A stretch of DNA of 64,000 nt from Candidatus Daviesbacteria bacterium (lineage in GTDB: Bacteria > Patescibacteriota > Microgenomatia > Daviesbacterales > UBA10151). Of the stretch, positions 1,367 through 51,158 are shown piece by piece. The notes below the pieces were generated by a model. That model had not been told where the DNA came from, made no database searches, and saw only the letters and a list, made by a program, of their open reading frames with translations. The first letter of the stretch is position 1. Each line of letters starts with the position of its first letter. Location: NCBI GenBank assembly GCA_016186955.1, contig JACPKP010000004.1, positions 71,288 through 135,287 on the forward strand. The letters are read 5' to 3'. Position numbers and translations under genes: made by a program.

Positions 1367-2038
1367 TTAGAGTGTAAATAATAGAATAATCTCTCCTTTG
1401 GGACGCTGCGATGAAAGTTTGTTCATCCAAAAAGATAACTTCTGTTTCTCCACAGCCTGATGGATTTTAGATAGCTCCCTAGCCAAAGTTATTTCAACAT
1501 CACCAAACACCTCCAGCATGTCCCCTAAAGTCCGGGTTAATTTAAAAGGGGCTACAAATATTATATAAGTTGTCTGTAAAATTTTGTTGCTTTGCATGAT
1601 TTTTTCCAGCATGCTTTTTCTTTTACCCTGTTTTTGGGGTAAATACCCTAAAAATAAAAACTTGTCAGGCGGTAAACCGGATAGGGTGAGGGCGGTTATA
1701 ACCGAAGTCGGGCCGGGAAGTGAATCAACAGTGATATTTTCCTCCAGACAATTTTTGACCAGTTTATATCCGGGGTCGGAAATCAGCGGAGTCCCTGCAT
1801 CAGATACCAGGGCAAAGTTTTGTCCCTGTTTGAGTTTTTCTAAAAGCATGGGGGCTGTTTTTTCTTCATTAAAGTCATTTAAAACCATCATTGGTTGTTT
1901 AATTTCATAATGGTTGAGTAAAACAGAAGTTCTTCTGGTGTCCTCGCAGATTATTCCGTCACAACTTCTAAGCGCCTCAAGCGCCCTTAAAGTGATATCT
2001 TTTAGATTACCGATAGGTGTTGGTATGATAGTTAACAT
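1367..2038 (-). CDS. rsmI: 16S rRNA (cytidine1402-2'-O)-methyltransferase RsmI (tetrapyrrole-methylase fold). The start is placed at the internal ATG (MLTIIPTPIGN...).
   Basis: 'IIPTPIGNLKDITLRALEAL...SDAGTPLISDPGYKLV' matches the RsmI family. The ATG lies at 2036-2038 on the minus strand. Confidence 0.8.
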   Translation of the reverse strand: MLTIIPTPIGNLKDITLRALEALRSCDGIICEDTRRTSVLLNHYEIKQPMMVLNDFNEEKTAPMLLEKLKQGQNFALVSDAGTPLISDPGYKLVKNCLEENITVDSLPGPTSVITALTLSGLPPDKFLFLGYLPQKQGKRKSMLEKIMQSNKILQTTYIIFVAPFKLTRTLGDMLEVFGDVEITLARELSKIHQAVEKQKLSFWMNKLSSQRPKGEIILLFTL

Positions 2039-2173
2039 AATATTTGACGGTAGAAAGTGGATGATTGATAATAGTAGTAGAAGATGGAGAATGGAAGGTA
2101 AGGATCTAGCTTCTATTTTCAATCCTCAAAATACTATTTTCTATCTTCTATAATCCATAGTCAATTATATTCT

Positions 2174-2782
2174 ATGTTGGAACAGATTGCTAATTGGATA
2201 ATAAATGTTATCTCAACAATGGGCTACCCGGGAATTATGTTGACTATGGCGGTTGAGTCAGCGCTGATCCCTTTGCCTTCTGAGATAATAATGCCTTTTT
2301 CCGGGTTTTTGGTTTCTACAGGAAAATTTGATTTAAATCTTGTTGCTTTATCAGGAGCAGTGGGAAATGTTTTAGGCTCTCTTTTGGCTTACTGGTTGGG
2401 GTATTGGGGGCATGAAAGGGTGGTGAGGAGATTAGTAAAGAGGTGGGGTAAATGGATTTTGCTCAGCGAAAAAGAACTGGATGAAGCTGAGAAGCTTTTG
2501 CATAAATATAAAGACCTGGTGGTTTTGGGCAGCAGGGTGATCCCGGGGATTAGGACTGTGATCTCACTTCCTTGCGGGATAGCAAAGCTGCCGTTGAAAA
2601 GGTTTGTCTTTTTAACCTTTATCGGGTCGCTTATTTGGTCGTATTTTTTGGCATGGATCGGGTTGGTGATGGGGGAAAATTGGGATACACTGGGGCCGTA
2701 TTTCCATAAAGCAGATGCAGTTGTGGGGGTTGCAATAGCTGGGGGATTAGTGCTATATGTTTATCATAGACTTAAGAGATAA
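2174..2782 (+). CDS. DedA/SNARE-associated family membrane protein
   Basis: 'VESALIPLPSEIIMPFSGFLVSTGKF' is the DedA signature, and hydrophobic segments are present. Confidence 0.7.
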   Translation: MLEQIANWIINVISTMGYPGIMLTMAVESALIPLPSEIIMPFSGFLVSTGKFDLNLVALSGAVGNVLGSLLAYWLGYWGHERVVRRLVKRWGKWILLSEKELDEAEKLLHKYKDLVVLGSRVIPGIRTVISLPCGIAKLPLKRFVFLTFIGSLIWSYFLAWIGLVMGENWDTLGPYFHKADAVVGVAIAGGLVLYVYHRLKR

Positions 2783-3036
2783 TGCCATACATAGAGCAGA
2801 CGATTGATCTTTTACTCCAGCCCCTTGCAGATTACCTGAAAAATTTACCAGAAAATGAGCAGGATGGGTCCTTAAATTATGCAGTTACTAAGCTGCTGCA
2901 TGAAATCTACCCTTTGCGCTACAGGCATATCAACAGGGCTATGGGTGTTTTATCCTGTATTGAAAAGGAGTACTACCGTAAGGTTGCAGCACCCTATGAA
3001 GACACAAAAATCCAGCAAAATGGGGAGGTAGTTTAA
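2782..3036 (+). CDS. hypothetical small protein
   Basis: 84-aa ORF with start/stop overlap with the upstream gene (ATGA). Confidence 0.3.
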   Translation: MPYIEQTIDLLLQPLADYLKNLPENEQDGSLNYAVTKLLHEIYPLRYRHINRAMGVLSCIEKEYYRKVAAPYEDTKIQQNGEVV

Positions 3037-3654
3037 TTAATTAAACCTTCTAATCACACCGACGCATTTTCCTTGGATTCTGCAATCTGTTGTATAAATT
3101 GGTTGCATGGCAGCGTTGGCAGGTTCCAGGCGGATCCGGTCGTTTTCCCTAAAGAAGCGTTTTAAAGTTGCCAACCCGGTGCCCAAAAGCGCTACCACAA
3201 TTTCCCCGTCATTGGCAGTCATGGTTTCTTCGATAATCACAAAATCCCCGTCTAAGATTCCATCCTCAATCATTGAATCGCCTTTAACCTGTAAAACATA
3301 GGAACGCTTTTTATCAGAAAGCAGCGAAGGTGAAACCCCTATTGTGGCATCGGGGTCAGTGTAGGGCATAATCGGTTCCCCTGCGGCGATAAACCCTAAA
3401 ACAGGCAGCTCTATGCCCTGCAAGGCGCCTGATATCTTTTGGTCTAAAACCTCAATACCCCTGACAGTCCCTTCAAACCTTTTGATCACCCCTTTTTGGG
3501 CCAGGGTCCTAAGATGCTCATGGACTGTTGCCAAGGATGAAACACCGATTGCATCGGCAATTTCACCAAGGGTTGGGGAATAGCCATACTTTTCTATATA
3601 GTCCTTTAAAAACCGTAAGACCTGTTTTTGGCGTCTGTAAAGAGTAACAATCAT
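3037..3654 (-). CDS. lexA: LexA repressor (winged-helix domain plus S24 peptidase domain)
   Basis: 'GYSPTLGEIADAIGVSS...TVHEHL' is the N-terminal HTH. 'VLQVKGDSMIEDGILDGDFVII...LKRF' is the S24 Ser/Lys catalytic domain. The ATG at 3652-3654 is preferred over the upstream TTG. Confidence 0.85.
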   Translation of the reverse strand: MIVTLYRRQKQVLRFLKDYIEKYGYSPTLGEIADAIGVSSLATVHEHLRTLAQKGVIKRFEGTVRGIEVLDQKISGALQGIELPVLGFIAAGEPIMPYTDPDATIGVSPSLLSDKKRSYVLQVKGDSMIEDGILDGDFVIIEETMTANDGEIVVALLGTGLATLKRFFRENDRIRLEPANAAMQPIYTTDCRIQGKCVGVIRRFN

Positions 3655-3672
3655 ACTACGAAACTTTACCAA

Positions 3673-3689
3673 ACAGAACCCGTAGCTGT
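3673..3689. promoter_or_regulatory. candidate LexA operator, an inverted repeat ACAG-N9-CTGT 20-35 nt upstream of the lexA start
   Basis: The sequence 'acagaacccgtagctgt' is read directly, and its position fits an autoregulatory site. The motif is not confirmed upstream of uvrA or uvrB. Confidence 0.2.
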
Positions 3690-3723
3690 CAACTGGGTAA
3701 ATTTATATCAAACATAGTCAGTT

Positions 3724-4113
3724 TTGATTATTTGTAAATTTAGTGGTAGGATTTGGGTAAAGAGTTATATGGTTGAGACAGTCAAGAAATTTACTCCGGT
3801 GCAAGAGCTTAAAATAAGGCAGTTAGTACATATATCCAAGCTTTTGTATGATCTGGATTTGGAATTTAGGACACTGGGAAAGAATACACTGGAACATAAA
3901 TGGTTTGACGGCAAAAACCATAGAGTAGAAACTATTAATCAAACATATCTGGACGGGCTTAGGAAAATAAGGAACAATATTTATTTAGCATTAGGCCAGG
4001 AAGGGTTTACCAAAGAAGGAAATATGATCCTCCAAAAATATTTAACCCCTTACGATATTGCAATGGGTGATAAATTTAAGCAAAAGTCAGTTGCGGATCA
4101 GGCTGTAACCTGA
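3724..4113 (+). CDS. hypothetical protein
   Basis: 129-aa ORF, possibly starting at the internal M (MVETVKKF). Confidence 0.35.
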   Translation: MIICKFSGRIWVKSYMVETVKKFTPVQELKIRQLVHISKLLYDLDLEFRTLGKNTLEHKWFDGKNHRVETINQTYLDGLRKIRNNIYLALGQEGFTKEGNMILQKYLTPYDIAMGDKFKQKSVADQAVT

Positions 4114-5271
4114 TTTTTTTTGGTTCTCAATTATATAACCTAAAGAGACAAAAGCCGGGTTTTTTCTAATCCTGTAAATTAAGGCATTTAAAGCCCAATC
4201 AGAGCCTTCACCGTTTTTCCAAAGCGCTTCAAAAATTTCATCCTTGGTGACTGTTTTTCCTGCCCGGCTTTTAAGCAGTGCAAACAACCTTGATTCTTGA
4301 AACGGCAGCCTTACTCTGGCGCCCGATTTTATAAAATCAGCGAGGAGGGTGGTAAAAACCTCCAATTTTCCTCCGGTTTTTTTAACAAATCCTGTATCCA
4401 AAAGGTACTTTTCCGGAGTTTTTACCTTTTTTCCCAGGGCGGTTTTTTGGAGCAGTTTTCTTTGCGGATATTTAAGATATTTGTACAAGTCTTTAAGCTG
4501 GAATTTTATGGCCTTATCCTGCAGGGGATTTTCGTGCAGGCAGTCTGATTTTAAAAGAAGCTGCAAAAGCTGGTAGTGTCCGCCTGATAATTCTAAAGCC
4601 CTGTCAAAATCTTGATGCTTCAAAAATTTGGGAGCATTTAGTCCGGTAAGTTTTTTTAGATCTTCTTTTGAGTATGGTTTCAGGTAAAAAGTTTTAGAAT
4701 ACATATTTAAATTTCCGCCTGAGAGGGCTTTTGGTGATTGTTCCAGCAAAGGCCTGTTTGCCGCAAAAACCATGACAATTTTCTCTTTGTCTATATCACG
4801 CAATGAGCGCAAATTTGAGAAAAAAGATTGTTCCAGCAAAGGCCTGTTTGCCGCAAAAACCATGACAATTTTCTCTTTGTCTATATCACGCAATGAGCGC
4901 AAATTTGAGAAAAAATCTTCATTGAATTCCTTTTTAAGCCTGTCAAAACGGTTAAAAATTATGACTATGCGTCTATGTTTTTGAGCAAGCTCTTCCAGAG
5001 GATGGCGCAACTGCTTGCGGAGCAGTTTAAAGAGCTCACTTCTTGACAGTTTTGGAAGCTCATTGATATCGACATGGACAAAGTATGCGAATTTTTGGGT
5101 CGCCAGGAAACGCAAAAAAATAGAAATACCCATCGAAGGCATGCCGCAGACTGAAAATGTTGTGGAGTTTTCAATAAGTTGCCTGATCTTTTTAATATCC
5201 TCCCTGCAAAATTTCGGCCCCAGTTTTGCTTCTTTGAAAGAATTTGACATAAGTAAGTTGAAACGCGTCAC
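4087..5271 (-). CDS. AAA-type ATPase with a C-terminal OmpR/CadC-type winged-helix DNA-binding domain (putative transcriptional regulator). It contains an exact 30-aa internal duplication.
   Basis: The C-terminus 'TVTKDEIFEALWKNGEGSDWALNALIYRIRKN...GYSL' matches trans_reg_C. The N-terminal half looks like a P-loop ATPase. The segment 'FFSNLRSLRDIDKEKIVMVFAANRPLLEQS' occurs twice. Confidence 0.55.
   Translation of the reverse strand: MTRFNLLMSNSFKEAKLGPKFCREDIKKIRQLIENSTTFSVCGMPSMGISIFLRFLATQKFAYFVHVDINELPKLSRSELFKLLRKQLRHPLEELAQKHRRIVIIFNRFDRLKKEFNEDFFSNLRSLRDIDKEKIVMVFAANRPLLEQSFFSNLRSLRDIDKEKIVMVFAANRPLLEQSPKALSGGNLNMYSKTFYLKPYSKEDLKKLTGLNAPKFLKHQDFDRALELSGGHYQLLQLLLKSDCLHENPLQDKAIKFQLKDLYKYLKYPQRKLLQKTALGKKVKTPEKYLLDTGFVKKTGGKLEVFTTLLADFIKSGARVRLPFQESRLFALLKSRAGKTVTKDEIFEALWKNGEGSDWALNALIYRIRKNPAFVSLGYIIENQKKSGYSLIRN
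4736..4915. repeat. perfect 90-bp tandem duplication (2 x 90 bp, in frame) inside the AAA/wHTH regulator gene
   Basis: 4736-4825 is identical to 4826-4915, read directly from the sequence. Confidence 0.9.
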
Positions 5272-39276: not shown

Positions 39277-41583
39277 TTATTTGAGGAACTTAACAAACAG
39301 TTCCTTGCTGTTTATTTTGGGAGCAGTAATTTTTCCTTCACCGGGTTTAGTCTCTTCTGTTTGTTTACCTGGTCTTTGGTCATTTTCATCAGGATACGTC
39401 CTGCCTTTAATCTCAGGGGCAAATTTGCTCATGTCAATCGGTTTGTCCCCGGTGTGCTCCTTGGTGTAGCGCTCTCTGGAAGCCCTGATTGCTTTTTCCC
39501 GGTTCTGGGTTTTGGATTGGGGCAGGGGTAGGGATTGGGCGAAAAAAGGGGTGGAAGTCAGTCCGTTAATGGACATCTTCAAAAGCAGCTGGTAATTTCC
39601 CAAACTTAATAAATCTTCCTCCTTAAACCGTTCCCCAAATTCCCTTGCCATAATCGGGGTATCCTCCGCCCCGATAATAAAGGACATGATAGTACCGGCG
39701 TTACCAAAAATTGCCGAACGCACCAGAGGGTCAATTTGGGCAGTGTATTGGTTTGCCAGGATCAGGTTAAGATGGTATTTCCTCGCCTCTGATAAGATTT
39801 TGATAAATGAGGTGGTGGCGAAGTTTTGGAACTCATCAACATAAAGGTAAAAATCACGCCTCTCTGCCTCAGGTGTATTAACCCGGTTCATGGCAGCAAG
39901 CTGAAGCTTGGTAATAATCATTGCCCCCAAAAGCGCGCTGTTGTCTTCACCTATCCTTCCCTGCGACAGGTTTAAGATTGCTATTTTACCGTTGTTCATA
40001 ATGTCTTCCAGATTAACAGTGGATTTGGGGAATGCCACAATATTGCGGATAACTTTGGATGATAAAAACTGCCCAACTTTATTTAAGATAGGGGAGATTG
40101 ACTCTTCCCTTAATTTGTCAGGCATTTTTTCAAACTCATTTGTCCAGTAGTTGACCAAAACCGGGTCCTGCAAATCTGCCACTGTTTTCTTCCTGAATTT
40201 CTGGTTTGTCAGGATTTCCGGAACCATCATTAAGGTTGAACTTGGTACGGCGATTAAAGTTAAAATTACATTGCGCAAAATATATTCCAGCCTGGGCCCC
40301 CATGAATCCCCGTAAAGCTTGTAAAAAATAGAGACAATGCCTGAGGCTATCAACTCTTTTTGGGCAGGGTTTGTTACCTCGAGCGGGTTTAAATGAAAAG
40401 GCCTGTCAACGTCAGCCGGGTTTAAATATACTATATCGTTGACCCTGTAGGAGGGGATGTAATCAAGCAGCACTTCTGACAGATCCCCGTGGGGGTCAAT
40501 GACTGCCAGCCCTTCGTTGTTCCGGATATCATTGATTGCGAGGTTGGCGATAAGCGTGGATTTACCGGTCCCGGTTTTTCCGATGATATACATATGTTTT
40601 CTCCGGTCTATCTGGTATATCCCGAAAATTGAAGACTTATTTTTAAATTCGGTCCTGGCAAAAAAGTTAATGCCTTTTTTTTCATCATCCGTCAGCTCAT
40701 AGGCAACGGGTAGGTTTTCCGGGGGGTCGGAGAGGATCGTTTTTGACCAGGAAATATTGCCTATTGTGGCTATTTTTGTACCGGGGAAATGGTATATTGT
40801 TGCTATTTCCATAATGTTTAATATTTGGTTTCTGGGAATATACGATATTTCTCTTAAAAGGATTGCCCTAATCAGCCCTTTGTGCTGCCAGAAAAAAGGC
40901 CTGACCAATGAAAGGCTGTTACCGGTGACGTTGTTAAAACTTATAAATGTTGCGGCAACAAGGTCCATTAGCGCCGGGTTGGAGCTTTTGGTGAGTATCC
41001 TGATTGCTGTTTTAAAACCAGGATAAGCAACTTTGTCAGATATCTGTTTAGAGTATGTACTGACCATTAAAGTATCCGGGGTAGTCTCATCCTTGTTCCC
41101 CTTTGACTCCATCATCCGCTGGCCTTTTGACTGCCACTTTGAGTTGACAGGACAAAGCAGAAACTGGACAACCACAACATCTTCTTTGGCTATCCTGGTC
41201 AGTATCCCCAAAAGGGATGACATCGGGTCAACATCCTTAAAATCATTAAAACTTTTAAGGGGATACAAAAAATTATGCTGAAGTTTAACCTGTCCTGCTT
41301 CAATATCTTTTTTTTCGGAAAGCAATGCCTGAAGTCCATCATCCTTGACCGGGGTTACTAAAGCTTTAGGGTATTGGGAGAGCAGTTGACTTTCAATGTA
41401 AGTCTGGTAAGCCAGTGGTGCGGCTATATAAAAATGGATGGCCTGGTTTACAACAACTATCTCCAAACTGAAGGCAGTTTTTGCTTTGATGCTTGTCAGC
41501 GATGCTAAAAACTGTACCATAGCTTCAGGTGTTTCTTCACCTGTGCGGGGGGTTTTAATCTCGAGTATTATTTTTTGATGCAT
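39277..41583 (-). CDS. VirD4/TraG/TraD-like P-loop ATPase (type IV coupling-protein family)
   Basis: Walker A is 'IIGKTGTGKST' and Walker B is 'FYLYVDEFQNF'. Length and architecture resemble the TrwB/TraD AAA_10 family. Confidence 0.6.
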   Translation of the reverse strand: MHQKIILEIKTPRTGEETPEAMVQFLASLTSIKAKTAFSLEIVVVNQAIHFYIAAPLAYQTYIESQLLSQYPKALVTPVKDDGLQALLSEKKDIEAGQVKLQHNFLYPLKSFNDFKDVDPMSSLLGILTRIAKEDVVVVQFLLCPVNSKWQSKGQRMMESKGNKDETTPDTLMVSTYSKQISDKVAYPGFKTAIRILTKSSNPALMDLVAATFISFNNVTGNSLSLVRPFFWQHKGLIRAILLREISYIPRNQILNIMEIATIYHFPGTKIATIGNISWSKTILSDPPENLPVAYELTDDEKKGINFFARTEFKNKSSIFGIYQIDRRKHMYIIGKTGTGKSTLIANLAINDIRNNEGLAVIDPHGDLSEVLLDYIPSYRVNDIVYLNPADVDRPFHLNPLEVTNPAQKELIASGIVSIFYKLYGDSWGPRLEYILRNVILTLIAVPSSTLMMVPEILTNQKFRKKTVADLQDPVLVNYWTNEFEKMPDKLREESISPILNKVGQFLSSKVIRNIVAFPKSTVNLEDIMNNGKIAILNLSQGRIGEDNSALLGAMIITKLQLAAMNRVNTPEAERRDFYLYVDEFQNFATTSFIKILSEARKYHLNLILANQYTAQIDPLVRSAIFGNAGTIMSFIIGAEDTPIMAREFGERFKEEDLLSLGNYQLLLKMSINGLTSTPFFAQSLPLPQSKTQNREKAIRASRERYTKEHTGDKPIDMSKFAPEIKGRTYPDENDQRPGKQTEETKPGEGKITAPKINSKELFVKFLK

Positions 41584-42782: not shown

Positions 42783-42978
42783 TAAGTAGAGCTTCTGGCG
42801 AGGTCTTATTTTCCCTTCATTTACCTTCTTTTAACTATTGTTAAGTAAGCGTTTTACCTGTACAATTATGCATAAACAGGCACGAGACGCGGTGTTGGCG
42901 CCTGCCCTGAGCGAAGCCGAAGGGAAAGACGCTATCACCGAGAGGACATTATTAAGCTAATAGCTAAAGAAAGTTAAT

Positions 42979-44258
42979 ATGAACGAGATTTAATTTCCAA
43001 AATTTATAAATCCATTTGTGATCTCCTTGGAGAAAACAATTGCATACAAATAGGTTCTTACCCCCGTCGTACAGCCATTACACCTGTTCACGATTTAGAT
43101 GTGCTTTATGTAATTGGCAATTGGGACGAGAACAGCCACGATCCCTCGACAGTATTACAAAACCTAGCCTCGCGATTTAACGATTATGTTAATCCGACTT
43201 CCTACAGCGTAGAATTGGGACCACCACAATCTCATTCGATTACAATCTTATTTAAGGACAATGCAGGTAAAGAAATACTTTCCATTGATATTGTTCCCAC
43301 ATACATTTTTTCGAAAAATGAATTTAATGAAGATACTTATAAAGTACCTGAAATTGCACGAAGAAGGCATGGGAAAAAGAGGACTCAATACTATCAAGAG
43401 CTTTCACTACAACATAAGGAAATGGGTTGGGTTGTTTCTGATCCAAGGGGATATATCCATGTTGCCTCCGAAACCGATACAGTAACGGGTGGTGAGTTCA
43501 GAAAAACTGCAAAGGTAGTTAAAAGGTGGAAAAATAATTTAGTGGCGGAAGATGAAAACCTTAAATTACAGTCTTTCCACATTGAACAGGTAATTACAAA
43601 TTACTTTAGAGAAAATAATTCACTTGAAATATTTGATGCTGTTTTTAATTTTTTTCTTGAGTTACCGGAAATTATAGATAATCCTAATCAAATTAAGGAT
43701 CGCGCTAATAATGGTAAATTCATTGACGATTATCTTGAACAATTTACCGACGAGCAAAAGAGCAAAATTAGAAGCGCGCGTGATGGATTTTTTATCAAAC
43801 TCGAAAGTTTCGGAGAAAATAATTCTATAGAGCAGCTATTTGAAATACTCTTTTATTCCAGAAAACCCACAGAGGAGTTTTTATTTGATAAAGGCATTAA
43901 GACATTTATTGATAACAGCTTAAAATTTAGGATTGATGGGTTTGTTAAACCGCTTTCGGGTTTTACTTCTGGCTGGTTAACAGAAACACCACATTTACAA
44001 AACGGTCTTACGAGAGGCGGAACCAAGAAAAGATATATAGAATTTAGAATAAGAAAGAACGAAACGCCTGCAGAAGAATATAGATGGAAAGTAAAAAATT
44101 CTGATACCTGCTTTCAGCCAAGAGGAGAAATAACACTTAATCGCACAAGGAATGACCCAGAGAGTACAGAATATGCCGGAAATCACTACGTCGAGTGTTA
44201 TGCAATCAAAAATGGTGATTGTATTGCAAGATCAAAAGTTCCAGTAAAAATTCTTTAG
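42979..44258 (+). CDS. cGAS/DncV-like nucleotidyltransferase (CD-NTase)-type Pol-beta NTase. Its 5' end is disrupted by a 1-nt frameshift at a T run (~42989-42996).
   Basis: Just upstream of the called GTG start, the 'G[SG]...D.D' motif 'IGSYPRRTAITPVHDLDVLYVIG' lies in frame. A third acidic residue occurs in 'SIDIVPTY'. A ~300-aa helical C-terminal domain follows. The ATG at 42979, with an RBS-like 'aaagaaag' upstream, reads M-N-E-I-stop. Adding one T fuses it to the downstream frame. Confidence 0.55.
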
Positions 44259-44267
44259 AATTTAATT

Positions 44268-45041
44268 ATGAAGAAGAAACAGAAATTTTTAGTTCCGATA
44301 TATGGCTTAAAAAAGAGCCCGAAACAAAGCATTAAATTAGATAAAAGTATTCTAATAAGACCAGTTGATATTTTTGCAGAAGAACAAAAACACTTTGAGA
44401 AATTCGGTTTGAAAGGAAGTTATGATGGAGTGTTGGAAGTTAATTATGAGTACGATTCAGACAATCCCAGTGAACCCTTCCCTGGTCTCTTTATAAATTT
44501 AATCAATAAGATAGATGCTTCGCTAGTTGTCTATGGAGACGGAGTTGTGGGAGTCGCGGGCGTTGTCCCAGCTCCTAACGAAGAATTTTCGGGAGGGGGT
44601 ATTCTTTCGTCATCAACAAAACCCCAATATGAAGAAAAGCTAGACAAAGAGATTGATGAAAACTTTGCAGCTTACTATAAAAGATTTGTTAAAGCCTATG
44701 ATATGCGGCCAGTAGCATTTGATGTTTACAGGCGAAGTTGTGATAGGTTCGCCAATAATGATAGGACTATAGATAGCTGTATTATTCTGGAAAGCCTATT
44801 TGTTCCTCCTAGCGAAAGGTCTAAGAAATCCTTTATTCTATATGGATTAAATATCTTAAAGTTTAGTACCGATGAAATTAAGGCTATAGATGATTTAATT
44901 GAATATCGCAATGCGATTATTCATGCAGATAGGAAAAAGCAGCTTAAATTACTATCTGGATCAAAATATACACATAAGTGGTTCGAGGATACTTTCAAGA
45001 TAATACGCAGAATTCTTTATAAATACATTGAGAGTCCTTAG
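44268..45041 (+). CDS. HEPN-motif protein. The C-terminal Rx4H motif 'EYRNAIIHA' marks a putative RNase effector, and the N-terminal ~150 aa is uncharacterised.
   Basis: An Rx4-6H motif sits at the end of a predicted helical ~110-aa C-terminal domain. The gene starts 10 nt after the NTase stop, in an operon-like arrangement. Confidence 0.4.
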   Translation: MKKKQKFLVPIYGLKKSPKQSIKLDKSILIRPVDIFAEEQKHFEKFGLKGSYDGVLEVNYEYDSDNPSEPFPGLFINLINKIDASLVVYGDGVVGVAGVVPAPNEEFSGGGILSSSTKPQYEEKLDKEIDENFAAYYKRFVKAYDMRPVAFDVYRRSCDRFANNDRTIDSCIILESLFVPPSERSKKSFILYGLNILKFSTDEIKAIDDLIEYRNAIIHADRKKQLKLLSGSKYTHKWFEDTFKIIRRILYKYIESP

Positions 45042-45093
45042 AATTGAAATGAAACACTTTAATTTGTCGCCGTCAACACTAGGTTTATCTAAA

Positions 45094-45216
45094 ATATGGT
45101 TAAATTATCGAGGTCTAAGTTAGAATTATTATTCGACTGTCCCCGTTGTTTTTGGTTATCTTGACTTTCGGGCTATAGTCCTGAGTCTTGCCGAAGGGTA
45201 ATTTATGGTTTAAAGT
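45094..45216 (+). repeat. copy 1 of the ~125-bp cassette-junction repeat (micro-ORF 45096-45164, MVKLSRSKLELLFDCPRCFWLS)
   Basis: Direct repeat shared with 48442, 49566 and 50728. Confidence 0.85.
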
Positions 45217-45222
45217 AAACTT

Positions 45223-45372
45223 ATGGCTAATGCTAGAAAGTTGCTGGTTAAATCTACGATATCTAGATTAGAAAAGAAAGATATACTTACAGAAATGTTT
45301 GAGAACTTTGGGATTAAAGTAATTACTGTAAGTAATCAGAACTCTAAGTCTGATAGTAGTAAGAGAAATTGA
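45223..45372 (+). CDS. conserved 49-aa small protein (paralog of 48569-48718)
   Basis: 'KKDILTEMFENFGIKVITV' versus 'KRDILTEMFEHFGIKVVDV' in the paralog. Confidence 0.4.
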   Translation: MANARKLLVKSTISRLEKKDILTEMFENFGIKVITVSNQNSKSDSSKRN

Positions 45373-45381
45373 AATAATACT

Positions 45382-45627
45382 ATGAAAAACGATTATCAAA
45401 TTGTCACTTTTAAAGATAAGAAAATTCGCCGGCATTGGGATGAAAAAACGGAGAAATGGTATTTTTCGGTGGTGGATATTATTGCCAAGAATTATAACCT
45501 CTCCGCCAAAAATCCAAATAATACAAATTCGGCCGTATACAAATCACCAAATGAAATCCTTATAAATATCCAAAACTCTGAGAAAAAAGTAAACCAAATT
45601 TTATCTGAGATCAAAGATTTATTGTGA
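45382..45627 (+). CDS. hypothetical small protein (possibly Bro-N/antirepressor-like)
   Basis: 81-aa ORF with 'IRRHWDEKTEKWYFSVVDIIA'. Confidence 0.3.
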   Translation: MKNDYQIVTFKDKKIRRHWDEKTEKWYFSVVDIIAKNYNLSAKNPNNTNSAVYKSPNEILINIQNSEKKVNQILSEIKDLL

Positions 45628-45717: not shown

Positions 45718-47190
45718 ATGGCAAATATTGATGTACAATTACTCGCCCAATTAAAAACCTGGAATCCTTGGTGGCAACAAGGCAAAGATGGTATAGCCAG
45801 ATATAATGACCCGGTCTACAAGCGAGAACTGTATAGTAATGTAATTAGTCAATATAAACAAGGTAATCAAATTGTAAGTATTGTTGGTATGCGGCAAGTT
45901 GGTAAATCAACACTTATGCGACAAGTTATAAAAGAGTTGTTGGATGAGGGAGTTGACCCAAAAACAATTTTGTATATTTCCTTTGATGACCCTTTCGTAC
46001 GCATAAAATATGATAAAAAAAAGATTTTTGACATTGTGGTACAAACTTTTATAGGAGGGTTACTTCAAGAAGATCTTGATTCTTATAAAGGTAAATTATA
46101 TTTTTTCCTGGATGAGATACATCAACTGCCTGAATGGGAGAAAACTCTCAAGACCTATTATGACCGTTCGTTCCCTATCAATTATATGGTGAGTGGCTCC
46201 TCTTCCCTTCACCTTCAGTCAAAAAATAAAGAAAGCCTGCTCGGGCGAATTTCAGAACATGTCCTTTGGCCATTTTCATTCAGGGAGTATTTTGAATATC
46301 ATTCTGGTCAAGAAAAACAGGTTTCCGAAATCATTGAGGAAGCAAGACAAATATACAATAAATATATTACTACATTTGATATGGCTGAAACGTACCCATC
46401 TCTACAAGAAACATATAAAAAAGCTTTTGTTTGGAGTAAGCAAATCATAGAATCAAATCTTCAAAGATTTATTGTTTGCGGGGGATTCCCCCGGGCATGG
46501 CAGCAGCCTGATTTTGTATCCAGGCAGCGGATTTTATGGGAACAGCATGTTGGAAAAGTAATTTTTGAAGATCTGGTGCAAGTAGCAAGTATACGGAAAC
46601 CACGTGACCTAGAGTTTTTATTTACTTACATTATTGAAAATAATGGGAAAGAAGTAAAACTTGGAGAAATGAAAAGGAATCTGAATATTCACTGGGAAAC
46701 TCTGGACCGATATTTAAGCTATCTCATAAGGACATTTTTAATATTCAGAATCGAAAGGACAAAAACAAAACGGCTACTTATTAAGAGAAGGTCAGGGAAT
46801 GTTAAATTCTATCTGACAGATGTTGCCCTCCGCAACGCATTTTATAATAAAACAGAAGATGTTTATTTTGATTCCGAAGAAATGTCTTTCATCTCTGAGA
46901 ACTTAGTTTGTACAACACTCCAGAGGTGGCTTCGTGGCCCAAAGCGTGAAGAACAGGTATCCTTTTATAAAGATAGAAGTGGAGAAGTAGATTTTGTGTT
47001 TAAAGGTTTTAATACAATTATCCCAATCGAAATTAAGTGGAGAAGTGACATACCTCCTTTGAAAACACTAAAAAAAGTAGAAAATGCTTGGGATGTTAGT
47101 CAAAGTATTTTAATTACTAAGGATCAAGATCTTGATCTAAGGAGTGGAAGATTATCAATACCATTATGGTTTTTCCTACTGTGTTTTTAA
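45718..47190 (+). CDS. AAA_14/DUF4143-family ATPase
   Basis: 'VSIVGMRQVGKSTLMRQV' is Walker A. The length and C-terminal DUF4143-like region fit the family. Confidence 0.8.
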   Translation: MANIDVQLLAQLKTWNPWWQQGKDGIARYNDPVYKRELYSNVISQYKQGNQIVSIVGMRQVGKSTLMRQVIKELLDEGVDPKTILYISFDDPFVRIKYDKKKIFDIVVQTFIGGLLQEDLDSYKGKLYFFLDEIHQLPEWEKTLKTYYDRSFPINYMVSGSSSLHLQSKNKESLLGRISEHVLWPFSFREYFEYHSGQEKQVSEIIEEARQIYNKYITTFDMAETYPSLQETYKKAFVWSKQIIESNLQRFIVCGGFPRAWQQPDFVSRQRILWEQHVGKVIFEDLVQVASIRKPRDLEFLFTYIIENNGKEVKLGEMKRNLNIHWETLDRYLSYLIRTFLIFRIERTKTKRLLIKRRSGNVKFYLTDVALRNAFYNKTEDVYFDSEEMSFISENLVCTTLQRWLRGPKREEQVSFYKDRSGEVDFVFKGFNTIIPIEIKWRSDIPPLKTLKKVENAWDVSQSILITKDQDLDLRSGRLSIPLWFFLLCF

Positions 47191-47196
47191 ATCTAT

Positions 47197-48420
47197 ATGA
47201 AAAATAACTGGCCAATTAAAAAATTAGGAGAGGTTTGTAAGGTTTTTGCTGATGGTGATTGGATCGAAAGTAAAGATCAGTCATCAAGCGGAATTCGTCT
47301 TGTTCAAACTGGGAATATTGGGAGGGGTATTTTTTTAAATAAAGGAGGAAAATCAAGGTTTATCTCTGAACAAACTTTTAAAAGGTTAAACTGTACAGAA
47401 ATTCTTCCAGGAGATTTGCTGATATCACGGTTACCTGATCCAGTTGGTCGTTCCTGTATAATTCCTGATACAGGAACAAAAATGGTAACAGCTGTTGATT
47501 GTACCATTGTCCGTGTGAATGAAAAATTAATACTTAGAGATTTTTTGCTGTTATACACAAATAGCTCAAATTACTACACTCAAATTCAAGCTCATTTATC
47601 AGGAACGACCCGCAAAAGAATAAGCCGAGGAAATTTATCACAAATTGAAATCCCTCTCCCACCACTTTCAGAACAAAAGAAAATTGTGGCGAAACTTGAG
47701 AAATTGTTGGCGAAAGTGAATGAAGCAAAAAAGCTCCGCGCTAAAGCGCAAGAAGCCGCGAGTCAGCTCCTCCCCGCCGAATTCCACAAAATTTTTGAAG
47801 AAGGAAGAGAAAAAGGATGGGAGGAAATAGATTTTGGTGATAAAAAATACATTGAGATTATAGATGGTGACCGAGGGAAAAATTATCCAAAAAAAAGTGA
47901 TTTTACACCTGAAGGCTACTGCCTTTTCTTAAATACAAGTAATGTAAGACACGGATCTTTTAATTTTTCTAAATGTGATTTTATTTCAAAGGAACGAGAT
48001 GAAATATTACGAAAAGGCAAATTGAAACGTGGCGATGTAATATTAACTACTCGAGGAACTCTCGGTAACTCTGCATTTTTTGATGATAAAGTACCTTTCG
48101 ACAATATGAGGATAAATTCTGGAATGGTTATATTGCGCGTTAATGAGAAAGTACTCACTCAACGTTTTTTACTGTATGTATTAAACTCACCAAATGTCAT
48201 GGATTTGATTAAGAAGGCGAACTCAGGCAGTGCTCAGCCGCAACTACCGATTCGTGTGTTATCAAAATACATTTTATACTTCCACCCATCACAGAGCAAA
48301 AAAAGATAGTTGCACGACTGGACTTAATTTCCGAAAAAGCGCGTCAACTTCAAGACTACCAAAAATCCACCGAGCGCGATCTCCTCACCCTCGAACAATC
48401 AATTTTACACAAGGCTTTTT
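47197..48420 (+). pseudogene. hsdS: type I restriction-modification specificity subunit HsdS with two target-recognition domains. It is frameshifted near the 3' end (~48265-48282, a T4 run), and no hsdM or hsdR is in the window.
   Basis: TRD1 ends with 'IPLPPLSEQKKIVAKLEKLL'. The frame stops at 48309, but the conserved 'ILPPITEQKKIVARLDLISEKARQL...' continues in another frame to 48420. One extra T restores the full-length protein. Confidence 0.8.
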
Positions 48421-48441
48421 AAGGAAGATTAGTAAATTAAA

Positions 48442-48563
48442 ATGATTAAATTATCAAGGTCTAAGTTAGAATTATTATTTGACTGTCCCCGTTGTTTCTG
48501 GTTATCTTGACTTTCGGGCTATAGTCCTGAGTCTTGCCGAAGGGTAATTTATGGTTTAAAGTG
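48442..48563 (+). repeat. copy 2 of the cassette-junction repeat (micro-ORF 48442-48510)
   Basis: Read from the sequence. Confidence 0.85.
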
Positions 48564-48568
48564 AGGTT

Positions 48569-48718
48569 ATGCTTAGCAAGAAAAATCCAGAGATTGAAAC
48601 GATAAAATCCAAACCTGAAAAAAGAGATATCCTGACGGAAATGTTTGAACACTTTGGGATTAAAGTAGTAGATGTAGGTTCTCAAATCCCAAAGGCCAAC
48701 AGGAAAAGAAAGGGATGA
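48569..48718 (+). CDS. conserved 49-aa small protein (paralog of 45223-45372)
   Basis: See the paralog entry above. Confidence 0.4.
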   Translation: MLSKKNPEIETIKSKPEKRDILTEMFEHFGIKVVDVGSQIPKANRKRKG

Positions 48719-48725
48719 AGTAAAG

Positions 48726-49565
48726 ATGAAAAAGATAATTACCAAAGGAATAAAAGTGTATACGTTTCAGCAAAATGAAATAGATTACATCTCCCTCACT
48801 GATATTGCCAGGTACAAAGATAAAGAAAGAACAGACTATATCATCCAAAATTGGATGAGGAATAGAGAAACTATAGAGTTCTTGGGTATTTGGGAACAAA
48901 TCAATAATACAAATTTTAAACCCATCGAATTCGATGGGTTAAGAAAAAATGCAGGATTAAATAGTTTTTCACTTACTCCTAAAAGATGGGTCTCTTCTGT
49001 CAATGCCATTGGCATTATTGCAAAATCGGGCAGATATGGAGGTGGGACATTTGCACACAAAGATATTGCTTTTGAATTTGCTTCCTGGATTAGCGCTGAA
49101 TTTAAGCTTTACTTGATTAAAGAATTTCAACGACTCAAAGTTGAGGAAAACGAGAGGTTAATTTTAGGTTGGGATGTTAAGCGTCAGCTGACCAAAATTA
49201 ATTATCTTATCCATACAGATTCCATTAAGGAAAACTTAATCCCTCTGTCAATTACTAAAAATCAAGCCAAAGTCATTTATGCCTCGGAAGCAGATATCTT
49301 GAACGTGGCTTTGTTTGGTAAAACCGCAAAAGAATGGCGCGATGAAAATAAGGATAAAGATGGTAATATCCGTGATTATTGTGACGTTACACAATTAGTA
49401 GTTTTGGCTAATCTTGAAGGTATTAATGCCGAGCTAATTCGTCAAGGCTTGCCTCAATCTAAGAGATTAGTTCAACTAAACCAGATCGCTATCTCCCAAA
49501 TGCAATCTTTACTTGGTAATGCCTCAATAAGCAAAGCTTTTCTACGAATAAAGAAATTAAAATAA
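48726..49565 (+). CDS. KilA-N domain protein
   Basis: 'ISLTDIARYKD...NWMRNRETIEFLGIWE...GGTFAHKDIAFEFASWISAEFKLYLIKEFQRL'. Confidence 0.75.
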   Translation: MKKIITKGIKVYTFQQNEIDYISLTDIARYKDKERTDYIIQNWMRNRETIEFLGIWEQINNTNFKPIEFDGLRKNAGLNSFSLTPKRWVSSVNAIGIIAKSGRYGGGTFAHKDIAFEFASWISAEFKLYLIKEFQRLKVEENERLILGWDVKRQLTKINYLIHTDSIKENLIPLSITKNQAKVIYASEADILNVALFGKTAKEWRDENKDKDGNIRDYCDVTQLVVLANLEGINAELIRQGLPQSKRLVQLNQIAISQMQSLLGNASISKAFLRIKKLK

Positions 49566-49686
49566 ATGATTAAATTATCGAGGGCTAAATTAGAATTACT
49601 TTTTGAATATCCCCGTTGTTTCTGGTTATCTTGACTTTCGGGCTATAGTCCTGAGTCTTGCCGAAGGGTAATTTATGGTTTAGAGT
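49566..49686 (+). repeat. copy 3 of the cassette-junction repeat (micro-ORF 49566-49634). It starts immediately after the KilA-N stop codon.
   Basis: Read from the sequence. Confidence 0.85.
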
Positions 49687-49695
49687 AGAATTTAT

Positions 49696-50727
49696 ATGAA
49701 AAAAGGCAGACAAATTATTAAACAAAATAGCTTCACCGAGTTTTTGCTTTATACAACGCCAAATGGAAAAGTAAAGGTAGAGATATTTCTTCATAATGAA
49801 AATATCTGGTTAACTCAATCTAAAATAGCAGAGCTTTTTGGAGTGCAGAGGCCGGCAATTACCAAGCATCTAAAAAACATATTTGAGACTATGGAGTTGA
49901 ACGAGAAATCAGTTAGTTCCATTTTGGAACATACTGCCAAAGACGGTAAGAAGTACAAAACCCTATTCTATAACCTTGATGCGATTATTTCGGTTGGATA
50001 CAGAATAAACAGCTCTCAAGCAACGCAGTTCCGTATTTGGGCAACAGAAAGACTTAAAGAATACATAATTAAAGGATTTACCATGGATGATGAAAGACTC
50101 AGGGATCCCTACAATATCTTTGGAAAAGATTATTTTGAAGAACAACTTGCCCGAATAAGGGATATACGTTCAAGCGAAAGGCGTATGTACCAGAAGATCA
50201 CTGATATTTACGCACAATGCAGCGCTGATTACGATCCAAATGAAGAAATTACCAGGCAATTTTTTGCGACAGTGCAAAACAAACTCCATTTTGCGATTAC
50301 CAATAAAACTGCCGCAGAGATAATACACGAAAGAGTAGATAGCGCCAAACCATATATGGGGCTCACTGTTTGGAAAAATTCTCCAAAAGGTGCTATTCGG
50401 GAATCCGATGTCATTATTGCCAAAAACTATCTTAATGAAAAAGAACTGGATCATTTAAATAGAATTGTTACCATGTATCTTGATTATGCAGAAATGCAAG
50501 CCGAGCGTGGGATTGTCATGTATATGAAGGACTGGGTAGCAAAGCTGGACGCCTTTCTTAAATTTAATGAGCAACAAATACTTAGTGACACTGGACTCAT
50601 AAGCCACGAGGTTGCAGAATCTCTGGCCTTGAAAGAATTTGAAAAATATCGCAGGGAGCGGGACAAAAACTACATATCAGATTTTGACCGCGAAATGAAA
50701 AAACTTTTGAAGAGAGCAAGGAAATAA
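49696..50727 (+). CDS. RhuM-family protein
   Basis: 'YNLDAIISVGYRINSSQATQFRIWATERLKEYIIKGFTMDDERL' is the hallmark RhuM block. Confidence 0.85.
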   Translation: MKKGRQIIKQNSFTEFLLYTTPNGKVKVEIFLHNENIWLTQSKIAELFGVQRPAITKHLKNIFETMELNEKSVSSILEHTAKDGKKYKTLFYNLDAIISVGYRINSSQATQFRIWATERLKEYIIKGFTMDDERLRDPYNIFGKDYFEEQLARIRDIRSSERRMYQKITDIYAQCSADYDPNEEITRQFFATVQNKLHFAITNKTAAEIIHERVDSAKPYMGLTVWKNSPKGAIRESDVIIAKNYLNEKELDHLNRIVTMYLDYAEMQAERGIVMYMKDWVAKLDAFLKFNEQQILSDTGLISHEVAESLALKEFEKYRRERDKNYISDFDREMKKLLKRARK

Positions 50728-50787
50728 ATGATTAAATTATCGAGGTCTAAATTAGACTTACTTTTTGAATGTCCCCGTTGTTTCTGG
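50728..50787 (+). repeat. copy 4 (truncated) of the cassette-junction repeat. It starts immediately after the RhuM stop codon and diverges into GC-rich sequence.
   Basis: Read from the sequence. Confidence 0.8.
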
Positions 50788-50902
50788 GAGCGGGTGAGGG
50801 GAGTAACAACCTTTCGTTTCGCGAAAGAACGTTGCCCCGATAAATCGGGGTCGAACAGCTTTGCACTCCGTGCTGCGCAGCCTAACTCTCCAACCACCCT
50901 TT

Positions 50903-50935
50903 CAAACAGAAAAACTGGCCACAAGGACCAGTTTT
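50903..50935 (+). terminator. rho-independent terminator
   Basis: 'aaaaACTGGccacaaggaCCAGTtttttg' is a hairpin followed by a T6 run. Confidence 0.55.
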
Positions 50936-51158
50936 TTGTTCGAGAGCGGGTAATGACAATCTGTTCGAACTTTATTTAAAAACCTTTAATGGTTTGATGC
51001 AATGTTTTAGACCCTACCCTCAGGTTTATTCTTTTTGATGCTTGATGTGTTTTTAAACTTAAGGCCTTCTACAAAATCCTCTAATACTGTCGTTAATCTG
51101 GTTAAAAATTAATCCATATTTTCTGACATTAGATTATCTGTGACGGTTACTTTATGTT

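What the first reader, a model, noticed from the sequence alone, without database searches (positions are those of the whole stretch)
42880..45041. Two-gene module: frameshifted cGAS/DncV-like nucleotidyltransferase followed by a HEPN-motif protein
The ORF at 43101-44258 lacks its catalytic N-terminus as called. Upstream, in frame, lies a textbook Pol-beta/CD-NTase active site (IGSYPRRTAITPVHDLDVLYVIG; third acidic residue in SIDIVPTY). A plausible RBS and ATG at 42979 sit in the -1 frame (M-N-E-I-stop), and one extra T in the T run at ~42989-42996 gives a ~426-aa NTase with a long helical C-domain, typical of CD-NTases rather than minimal MNT toxin partners. Ten nucleotides downstream is a 257-aa protein whose C-terminal helical domain carries an Rx4H HEPN motif (EYRNAIIHA) and whose N-terminal ~150 aa are uncharacterised and could be a ligand sensor. 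The arrangement of NTase then HEPN resembles both CBASS type I (CD-NTase plus effector) and MNT/HEPN toxin-antitoxin logic, but the sizes and domain order fit neither standard case. The module sits at the start of a defence island. A GC-rich fragment related to the palindromic mini-elements (tgagcgaagccgaaggg) lies just upstream.
Basis: partly seen in the sequence, partly recalled or inferred. Interest (0 to 1): 0.8.

Follow-up and report, generated by a model that had tools for sequence, protein, structure and literature searches.

The report
Truncated CBASS cyclase beside HEPN gene
This stretch holds the leftover of a known bacterial anti-virus alarm system (CBASS), which lost its start and its membrane-killing partner in a 2.8-kb deletion, followed by an unrelated, rare and uncharacterised HEPN-type (putative RNase) gene; they look like neighbours by accident, not a new two-gene system.

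Summary
The NTase is a CBASS cyclase of a catalogued family (PADLOC PDLC00785, E=4e-196) with its GS/DxD/D residues intact. It is not frameshifted. Relatives are 445-447 aa, and the window copy lacks codons 1-21.

Compared with the closest intact relative (L009/L010), a ~2.79-kb deletion at an AAT microhomology removed four things: an EcoRI-like methylase, a GmrSD/HNH gene, the 182-aa TM effector (PADLOC PDLC00664) and the cyclase start. The TAA at 42975-42977 is the stop codon of a decayed HTH gene. The "ATG" at 42979 is an out-of-frame triplet inside Tyr22-Glu23. The "T run" reads TTTAATTT.

In all 8 other cyclase contexts examined, the conserved partner is the overlapping upstream TM effector. 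That gene is absent from the window.

Verdict: a decayed type I CBASS next to an independent, uncharacterised HEPN gene. Interest is low to moderate.

The parts
42815..42875 (+). Leader or promoter-like region of the ancestral island operon (TTGTTA-17-TACAAT at 42838-42866).
   Evidence: Aligns to L009 1643-1703, which lies upstream of that locus's HTH gene (0 of 500 shuffles reach the score). The promoter-like match itself is no better than chance.
42876..42977 (+). 3' remnant of a small HTH_17/excisionase-type gene: TGTRRGVG-ACPERSRR-ERRYHREDIIKLIAKES, followed by its stop TAA at 42975-42977. About 144 nt of 5' sequence, including the HTH motif, is missing.
   Evidence: L009 1722-1919 encodes a 65-aa HTH_17 protein (Pfam 1e-10) ending GTRRGVGERRYRREEIIKLITKR*. 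Window 42921-42978 aligns to L009 1865-1920.
42900..42923 (+). 24-nt in-frame GC-rich insertion (GCCTGCCCTGAGCGAAGCCGAAGG) inside the HTH remnant.
   Evidence: Absent from L009. It contains most of the 19-mer CCTGAG-N4-GCCGAAGGG, which is found 4 times in the window.
42975..42978 (+). Deletion junction at a (T)AAT microhomology. About 2.79 kb present in L009 (roughly 1921-4711) is missing here: an EcoRI-like methylase, a GmrSD_N/HNH gene, the TM effector, and cyclase codons 1-21.
   Evidence: the same AAT aligns to both L009 1918-1920 and L009 4709-4711.
42978..44258 (+). CD-NTase (CBASS cyclase with a C-terminal AGS-C domain), codons 22-447 plus the stop. There is no in-frame ATG, GTG or TTG before GTG 43101, and that codon lies beyond the GS and DxD motifs.
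   Evidence: PADLOC PDLC00785 4e-196; Pfam AGS_C 2e-13. It is 92% identical to the 447-aa P0073. dN/dS is 0.08-0.10 with no internal stops.
44268..45041 (+). 'HEPN-259' gene: a novel alpha/beta N-domain (about residues 1-125) plus a C-terminal HEPN domain with R214-N215-x3-H219. It ends prematurely at TAG 45039-45041 (TGG in relatives); the ancestral stop TGA is at 45045-45047.
45093..45225 (+). First copy of a 133-nt direct repeat. It contains a ~60-nt pseudo-ORF start (MVKLSRSKLELLFDCPRCFW, stop after 22 codons) and the GC-rich 19-mer. It marks the 3' edge of the block shared with relatives (homology ends at about 45074).

Best explanation
The region is a decayed piece of a defence island, not a two-gene signalling module.

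(1) Ancestral arrangement. As preserved in the relative L009/L010, the order was: HTH regulator, EcoRI-like adenine methylase, GmrSD/HNH nuclease, 182-aa TM effector, CD-NTase, HEPN-259. The TM effector plus CD-NTase form an ordinary type I CBASS. By analogy with characterised CBASS, the cyclase senses infection and makes a cyclic oligonucleotide, which activates the membrane effector and aborts infection. This mechanism is inferred from family membership.

(2) What happened in the window. A ~2.79-kb deletion between two AAT triplets fused the stop codon of the (itself decayed) HTH gene directly to cyclase codon 22. This is shown by alignment. The cyclase now has no start codon, follows an in-frame stop, and has no effector gene, so the CBASS is non-functional (inferred). 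Its otherwise clean sequence (dN/dS about 0.09) indicates that the loss is recent.

(3) The downstream gene. It belongs to a rare, separately mobile family: a novel N-terminal alpha/beta domain fused to a HEPN domain with a conserved R-N-x3-H site. It most likely acts on its own as a stress- or phage-triggered RNase toxin or abortive-infection effector, with the N-domain as its regulator (inferred from fold, motif and defence-island contexts). In the window it may still be transcribed from the retained upstream leader, but it has lost its last two residues, including a Trp conserved in at least 90% of homologues.
For: Cyclase identity:
- PADLOC Cyclase PDLC00785 E=4e-196, covering model positions 24-441 of 443, and Pfam AGS_C 2e-13.
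- The profile matches the solved CdnD/CdnC structures 6p82 and 6p80.

Truncation rather than frameshift:
- Homologues are 445-447 aa and begin MKKDDFNAKFRDYARTLSPRQ|YERDL.
- DNA homology to L001, L009 and L010 starts at 42976.
- tblastn finds no effector gene or cyclase N-terminus anywhere in the window.

Deletion reconstruction:
- Window 42921-42978 matches L009 1865-1920, and window 42976 onward matches L009 4709 onward; both alignments share the AAT.
- The L009 genes were identified by Pfam: HTH_17 1e-10, EcoRI_methylase 4e-136, GmrSD_N plus HNH.

True partner of the cyclase:
- The 182-aa gene is PADLOC CBASS 'Effector 1TM' PDLC00664, E=3.6e-64.
- It lies directly upstream of the cyclase in all 8 other contexts: L001, L009/L010, L035, L036-40, L041, L042/43, L044 and L045. 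In the six called or listed from the true start, the two genes overlap by 14 nt.
- The gene downstream of the cyclase varies: DUF2958, a type III res helicase, a phosphatase, thioredoxin.

HEPN-259 is independent:
- 18 distinct contexts were recovered, and a cyclase is adjacent only in L001 and L009/L010.
- Upstream genes elsewhere are diverse: an OLD-type ATPase, another HEPN protein, DUF2207, multi-TM proteins.
- DNA homology to L002, L008 and L011-16 (~84%) begins at the start codon, 44267.
- dS between L001 and L009 is 0.23 for the cyclase but 0.74 for the HEPN gene.

HEPN fold and family:
- AF2 pLDDT 92.5.
- N215 and H219 are invariant and R214 is conserved in at least 90%.
- The family has 33 clusters with E<=1e-3 among 1.84e9 representatives.

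Other evidence of decay:
- TGG->TAG at 45039-45041.
- A 144-nt deletion and a 24-nt insertion in the HTH gene.
Against: - The ancestral gene order rests on one relative lineage (L009/L010, ~88% DNA identity). L001 has a different gene upstream of its effector, so the exact content of the deletion could differ.
- Reads were not available, so an assembly error cannot be formally excluded. A 3-nt microhomology is, however, far too short for an assembler to join.
- Non-canonical initiation cannot be excluded by sequence alone. One route would be ATT at 42993, which overlaps the TAA of the 4-codon mini-ORF. In L044 and L045 the cyclase appears to start at ATC.
- The cyclase remnant shows no excess of damaging substitutions (3 of 94 highly conserved positions; the median for homologues is 2). 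Continued selection therefore cannot be ruled out.
- The function of HEPN-259 is inferred only from fold, motif and neighbourhood. No member has been tested, and tight spacing to variable upstream genes could reflect functional coupling.
Confidence: 0.75

Rival explanations
1. A single-base frameshift in a T run masks an intact ~426-aa CD-NTase, which together with the HEPN protein forms a new NTase-to-HEPN signalling or TA-like module. The HEPN N-domain would act as the ligand sensor.
For: The two genes are adjacent, on the same strand, and 9 nt apart. The same pair occurs in L001 and L009/L010. The cyclase catalytic residues and the HEPN motif are intact.
Against: - The NTase frame upstream of the T's already matches the homologues (YERDL), and 21 N-terminal codons are simply absent.
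- The pair is confined to one narrow clade, 2 of 18 HEPN contexts and 2 of 8 cyclase contexts.
- In that clade the cyclase still has its own TM effector.
- There is no CARF, SAVED or STING signal by HMM or by fold.
- The two genes have incongruent dS.
Confidence: 0.05
2. Assembly artefact. The junction at 42975-42978 is a chimeric join, and the real genome carries an intact island.
For: The window is probably from a metagenome-assembled CPR genome, a type of assembly in which mis-joins occur. No reads could be examined.
Against: - The junction shares only 3 nt (AAT) between the two sides, far below any assembler's overlap.
- The same locus carries three further independent lesions: a 144-nt deletion, a 24-nt insertion in the HTH gene, and TGG->TAG in the HEPN gene.
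- No second copy of the missing genes exists in the 64 kb.
Confidence: 0.08
3. HEPN-259 is the toxin (or effector) half of a two-gene system whose partner is whichever gene lies immediately upstream. Here and in L001 and L009 that partner would be the cyclase, so the pair is functionally coupled even though the partner varies.
For: In many loci the upstream gene ends 1-25 nt before, or overlaps, the HEPN-259 start: L002, L003, L014, L018, L019, L025, L027. One upstream partner is itself a HEPN-domain protein (L014, Pfam PF05168, 2e-5).
Against: - Upstream genes share no detectable similarity, with sizes ranging from 188 to 652 aa and unrelated Pfam or PADLOC content.
- Several loci have gaps of 190-430 nt or a divergent upstream gene: L004, L006, L007, L017.
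- Tight spacing is normal in these small genomes.
Confidence: 0.12
4. The truncated cyclase is still made, by termination-reinitiation at ATT 42993 after the MNEI mini-ORF or from GTG 43101. It would then retain a role such as a decoy, a regulator or an AGS-C sensor.
For: There are no internal stops in 426 codons, dN/dS is 0.08-0.10, and there are only 3 deviations at 94 highly conserved positions. The relatives L044 and L045 appear to start at ATC. The TAA of the mini-ORF overlaps an in-frame ATT.
Against: - The same dN/dS is expected after a recent deletion.
- The missing N-terminus lies within the part of the profile (positions 6-132) that aligns to the N-terminal ~140 residues of solved CdnD.
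- No effector is present to receive a signal.
- A GTG 43101 start would remove the GS and DxD motifs.
- An F31R change sits next to the GS motif, at a position conserved in at least 90% of homologues.
Confidence: 0.05

Closest known systems
Type I CBASS with a transmembrane effector (PADLOC cyclase family PDLC00785 plus effector '1TM' PDLC00664; SMODS/AGS-C cyclases of Burroughs et al. 2015, classification of Millman et al. 2020; the citations are from my own knowledge)
   Same: The cyclase matches the family model end to end (4e-196), with GS, DxD and D conserved. In relatives the overlapping upstream 167-183-aa TM gene matches the catalogued effector model.
   Different: The window copy lacks the effector gene, the cyclase start and codons 1-21. 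It is a remnant, not a system.
Solved CD-NTases CdnD (6p82, 6p8u) and CdnC (6p80)
   Same: The family profile aligns over positions 6-132 to the NTase core (E=3.6e-13).
   Different: Similarity is distant. This family carries an extra ~130-aa C-terminal AGS-C domain and pairs with a TM effector rather than with a NucC- or HORMA-type module.
HEPN toxins of HEPN-MNT toxin-antitoxin systems (5yep_B SO_3166; 7ae2_A)
   Different: Sequence identity is 8-9%. HEPN-259 has an additional ~125-aa N-terminal domain. The neighbouring NTase is a 447-aa CBASS cyclase, not a minimal MNT antitoxin, and most family members have no NTase neighbour at all.
Single-protein HEPN defence or abortive-infection proteins (ApeA, AbiV 9bj5, HepS 9oik; Pfam HEPN_RiboL-PSP)
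CARF-HEPN and SAVED effectors (Csm6/Csx1) of cyclic-oligonucleotide signalling

Membership tests
CD-NTase / CBASS cyclase | Pol-beta NTase core with G[GS], [DE]x[DE] and a third acidic residue, and significant similarity to CD-NTase models. | tested here: met
   PADLOC PDLC00785 4e-196. G26/S27, D39/D41 and D104 are invariant columns retained in the window copy. Pfam SMODS (22.5 bits against a 26.5 cut-off) and NCBIfam CBASS_cyclase_b (93 against 200) fall below their curated cut-offs.
CD-NTase / CBASS cyclase | A complete, translatable ORF with a start codon and full N-terminus. | tested here: not met
   An in-frame TAA sits at 42975-42977. There is no ATG, GTG or TTG before 43101. Codons 1-21 are absent when compared with 445-447-aa homologues.
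Type I CBASS operon | An adjacent effector gene that responds to the cyclase's signal. | tested here: not met
   The family's effector (PDLC00664, 3.6e-64 in L001) is upstream in 8 of 8 other contexts but absent from the whole window by tblastn.
CBASS effector (HEPN-259 as effector) | A recognised nucleotide-sensing domain (SAVED, STING, CARF or similar), or a match to a catalogued effector. | tested here: not met
CBASS effector (HEPN-259 as effector) | Conserved co-location with a cyclase across the family. | tested here: not met
   A cyclase is adjacent in 2 of 18 distinct HEPN-259 contexts. HEPN-259 is downstream in 2 of 8 cyclase contexts. All of these belong to one clade.
HEPN superfamily | A conserved Rx4-6H motif. 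| tested here: met
   In R214-N215-A-I-I-H219, N215 and H219 are invariant and R214 is conserved in at least 90% of 50 sequences.
HEPN superfamily | The all-alpha HEPN fold. | tested here: met
HEPN superfamily | RNase activity. | not testable with these tools
   Needs biochemistry.
HEPN-MNT toxin-antitoxin | A minimal MNT nucleotidyltransferase antitoxin (~100-150 aa) encoded next to the HEPN toxin. | tested here: not met
   The neighbouring NTase is a 447-aa CBASS cyclase with an AGS-C domain. Most HEPN-259 loci have no NTase neighbour.

The most novel reading that the evidence does not exclude
HEPN-259 may be a previously undescribed single-gene (or plug-in) antiviral effector family, largely restricted to CPR bacteria, DPANN-like archaea and other uncultivated lineages. 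Its novel N-terminal alpha/beta domain would sense an infection cue. In the L009/L001/window clade that cue could be the CBASS cyclic nucleotide, which would make it a second, RNA-targeting output of a TM-effector CBASS.
Probability: 0.1. Interest if true: 0.6.

Novelty: new member of a known kind. Interest (0 to 1): 0.28.

Why it matters
- It removes a false lead. There is no new NTase-HEPN signalling architecture here and no sequencing frameshift to repair.
- It documents, base by base, how a defence island in a small-genome (CPR-type) organism decays. One microhomology deletion took out a methylase, a type IV-like nuclease and the working half of a CBASS. Smaller lesions affect the flanking genes.
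- The one item of forward interest is the HEPN-259 family. It is rare, confidently modelled and unannotated, has an N-domain of unknown fold affinity, and recurs in defence-gene neighbourhoods. That makes it a reasonable low-cost candidate for a toxicity and defence screen.

Tried and rejected
- T-run frameshift: rejected by homologue N-termini and the DNA alignment.
- Effector or cyclase 5' end displaced elsewhere in the window by an insertion: rejected (tblastn).
- Integron-like cassette idea, based on the repeated element downstream of the genes: dropped. The repeat is a 133-nt unit containing a truncated pseudo-ORF, not an attC-like palindrome, and it does not fold better than shuffles (z=-0.6).
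- GC-rich upstream fragment as a structured RNA or mini-element hairpin: fold z=-1.4, and no Rfam hit. It is a 24-nt in-frame insertion in an HTH gene remnant.
- Short (366-387 aa) database cyclases as evidence for recurrent truncation: rejected for the two loci examined (P0171 and P0173, i.e. L044 and L045). These are gene-call artefacts of an ATG->ATC start.
- Searching viral contigs for the 19-mer gave more than 120 hits to a 15-specified-base pattern, which is uninformative.
- Foldseek against afdb50 was unavailable. Foldseek against the PDB found nothing.
- No phage or plasmid records encode HEPN-259.
- Hidden common domain among upstream partners of HEPN-259: all-vs-all BLAST, Pfam and PADLOC found none. 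Profile or structure comparison of those partners was not done.
Full report
OBSERVATION

The ORF called at 43101-44258 is open in the same frame back to 42978. That extension encodes ...CIQIGSYPRRTAITPVHDLDVLYVIG..., with SIDIVPTY further on. A 257-aa ORF follows 9 nt later (44268-45041) and carries EYRNAIIHAD. These features are real.

The proposed lesion is not real. Positions 42989-42996 read TTTAATTT. The peptide encoded upstream of them in the NTase frame (YERDLISKIY) is exactly what full-length homologues have at residues 22-31.

THE NTase

- It matches the PADLOC CBASS cyclase model PDLC00785 at E=4e-196, covering model positions 24-441 of 443.
- It has a Pfam AGS_C domain at its C-terminus (2e-13).
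- It has sub-threshold SMODS and NCBIfam CBASS-cyclase hits.
- A search of 5.8 billion proteins gave 712 relatives, almost all 445-447 aa, beginning MKKDDFNAKFRDYARTLSPRQ|YERDL....
- The GS, DxD and third-Asp columns are invariant and are retained in the window copy.
- A family profile reaches the solved CdnD and CdnC structures over profile positions 6-132. The missing N-terminus therefore overlaps the region that aligns to the solved NTase core.

The window copy lacks codons 1-21. DNA homology to the closest relatives (L001, L009/L010; ~88% identity) starts abruptly at 42976.

THE REAL PARTNER

In L001 a 182-aa membrane protein lies upstream and overlaps the cyclase start by 14 nt. It matches the PADLOC CBASS effector '1TM' model PDLC00664 at 3.6e-64.

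The same effector-cyclase arrangement is present in every other cyclase context I retrieved: L009/L010, L035, L036-40, L041, L042/43, L044 and L045. The gene downstream of the cyclase differs each time. The family is therefore an ordinary type I CBASS with a TM effector. In the window, neither the effector nor the cyclase 5' end exists anywhere in the 64 kb.

WHAT HAPPENED

L009/L010 carries a co-directional array:
- HTH_17 protein, 65 aa
- EcoRI-like adenine methylase (Pfam 4e-136)
- GmrSD_N/HNH protein
- TM effector
- cyclase
- the 259-aa HEPN protein

Window 42815-42875 aligns to the leader upstream of that HTH gene. Window 42921-42978 aligns to the HTH gene's last codons and stop (L009 1865-1920). 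Window 42976 onward aligns to L009 4709 onward, within the cyclase. The triplet AAT is shared by both alignments (0 of 500 shuffles reach either upstream score).

The simplest reading is a ~2.79-kb deletion at an AAT microhomology. Several points follow from it:
- The TAA at 42975-42977 is the HTH gene's own stop, which happens to be in the cyclase frame.
- The 'RBS' is the HTH gene's last codons (AAA GAA AGT).
- The 'ATG' at 42979 is the out-of-frame triplet of TAT-GAA. L009 has the same triplet inside its intact gene.
- The HTH gene is itself a wreck. About 144 nt, including the HTH motif, are missing.

The remnant cyclase has no internal stops. Its dN/dS of 0.08-0.10 against intact relatives is the same as intact against intact (0.105). 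It deviates at only 3 of 94 highly conserved positions. The deletion therefore looks recent. A 3-nt overlap could not have been created by an assembler, but no reads were available to confirm this.

THE 257-aa PROTEIN

- Seventy-two relatives were found, nearly all 256-259 aa.
- An exhaustive profile search of 1.84 billion representatives found only 33 clusters at E<=1e-3.
- No member reaches a curated Pfam, PADLOC or NCBIfam threshold. Seventeen of 50 give sub-threshold HEPN_RiboL-PSP hits.
- The AF2 model is confident (pLDDT 92.5).
- The R-N-x3-H site is conserved. The HEPN call is right.
- Relatives end ...ESPWN. The window has TGG->TAG, which removes a Trp conserved in at least 90% of homologues.

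IS THE PAIR A MODULE?

I recovered 33 further HEPN-259 loci by collection scans, and L001 makes 34 in all. These collapse to 18 distinct contexts.

- A cyclase is adjacent only in L001 and L009/L010, the window's closest relatives.
- Elsewhere the upstream gene varies: a multi-TM protein, a 221-aa protein, another HEPN protein, an OLD-type ATPase/TOPRIM, DUF2207, a tail-fibre-like protein and others. These share no similarity with one another.
- DNA homology to the L002, L008 and L011-16 copies (~84%) starts at the start codon and ends about 15 nt after the stop.
- Within the cyclase-adjacent clade the two genes have different histories. For L001 against L009, dS is 0.23 for the cyclase and 0.74 for the HEPN gene.

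The adjacency is best read as one lineage-specific juxtaposition inside a defence island. The 'island' claim itself holds: PDC-S01, a type I S subunit, PDC-S22 and PDC-S05 follow downstream.

MECHANISM

Shown:
- the identity of the parts
- the deletion junction
- the loss of the effector and of the cyclase start
- the HEPN fold and motif
- the lack of conserved pairing

Inferred:
- The ancestral TM-effector/cyclase pair worked as a type I CBASS, with a cyclic-oligonucleotide signal, membrane disruption and abortive infection.
- The window copy is inactive.
- HEPN-259 acts autonomously as a regulated RNase toxin or abortive-infection effector, probably as a dimer that forms the composite Rx4H site, with the N-domain as its switch.

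The rival explanations, with their evidence, are listed separately in this report.

NOVELTY AND SCORE

The CBASS part is already catalogued and is broken here. The HEPN gene is a new, rare member of a well-known superfamily, with an N-domain of unknown affinity. The proposed new architecture is not supported. Interest is about 0.28. The residual novel reading, that HEPN-259 is a new defence effector possibly tuned to CBASS signals in this clade, has a probability of about 0.1.

Noticed in passing
window 45093-45225, 48439-48571, 49563-49695; partial copy at 50722-50787; L019 4013-4079: A 133-nt direct repeat. Its first ~60 nt read like a gene start, M(V/I)KLSRSKLELLFDCPRCFW (Cas4/PD-(D/E)XK-like N-terminus). 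In three window copies and in L019 it stops after about 20 codons; the copy at 50728 instead runs on for 83 codons into the GC-rich stretch listed in the next entry. The same 60 nt occur at 88-92% identity just downstream of the HEPN-259 gene in the distant locus L019. This looks like a conserved DNA element or the end of a mobile element rather than a gene.
   Followed up: partly
window ~50787-50940, with a hairpin plus U-run at about 50910-50940: A GC-rich stretch in an AT-rich region folds into a very stable multi-branch structure (-71.9 kcal/mol, z=-3.98, 0 of 200 shuffles reach it), followed by a terminator-like hairpin. There is no Rfam match, even at E<=1. It is a candidate unknown structured RNA.
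   Followed up: partly
window 42906, 45180, 48526, 49650: The 19-mer CCTGAG-N4-GCCGAAGGG occurs 4 times, against 0.03 expected. Three copies lie inside the 133-nt repeat. One lies inside a 24-nt in-frame insertion in the HTH gene remnant.
   Followed up: partly
L044 2800-2805; L045 equivalent site: In one cyclase subclade the start that overlaps the effector gene is ATC instead of ATG, while the N-terminus is otherwise intact in frame. Gene callers therefore report 366-381-aa 'truncated' cyclases (P0171 and P0173; probably P0154 and P0159 as well, not checked). This suggests non-canonical, translationally coupled initiation.
   Followed up: yes
L036-L040 (for example L036 1467-7948): The TM-effector/cyclase pair sits between the mod (methylase) and res (helicase) genes of a type III restriction-modification system, all on the same strand with overlapping or abutting ORFs.
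   Followed up: no
L035 2715-3344; L041 1052-1684; L042/L043 1757-2365: A LexA-like HTH plus Peptidase_S24 gene lies immediately upstream of the CBASS pair in three independent contexts. It may be a damage-responsive regulator.
   Followed up: no
window 45382-45627 and 45718-50727: The candidate defence genes PDC-S01 (DUF4143 ATPase), a type I HsdS, PDC-S22 (KilA-N) and PDC-S05 (RhuM) follow the HEPN gene. No hsdM or hsdR was recognised among the ORFs scanned. By eye, the 81-aa ORF at 45382-45627 looks like a Bro-N-like start fused to an HsdM C-terminal tail. That would be further decay, but it was not tested.
   Followed up: partly
window 39277-41583 (minus strand); L035 1-2536: A T4SS coupling-protein-like ATPase lies upstream of the locus. 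The related cyclase locus L035 is also flanked by T4SS pilin, TrbC and TraC-like genes. This hints that the island rides on, or sits next to, a conjugative-type element.
   Followed up: no
window 43068-43070 (residue 31 of the in-frame stretch): F->R at a position conserved in at least 90% of homologues, immediately after the GS motif (YPRF -> YPRR). It is the only radical change in the remnant cyclase.
   Followed up: no
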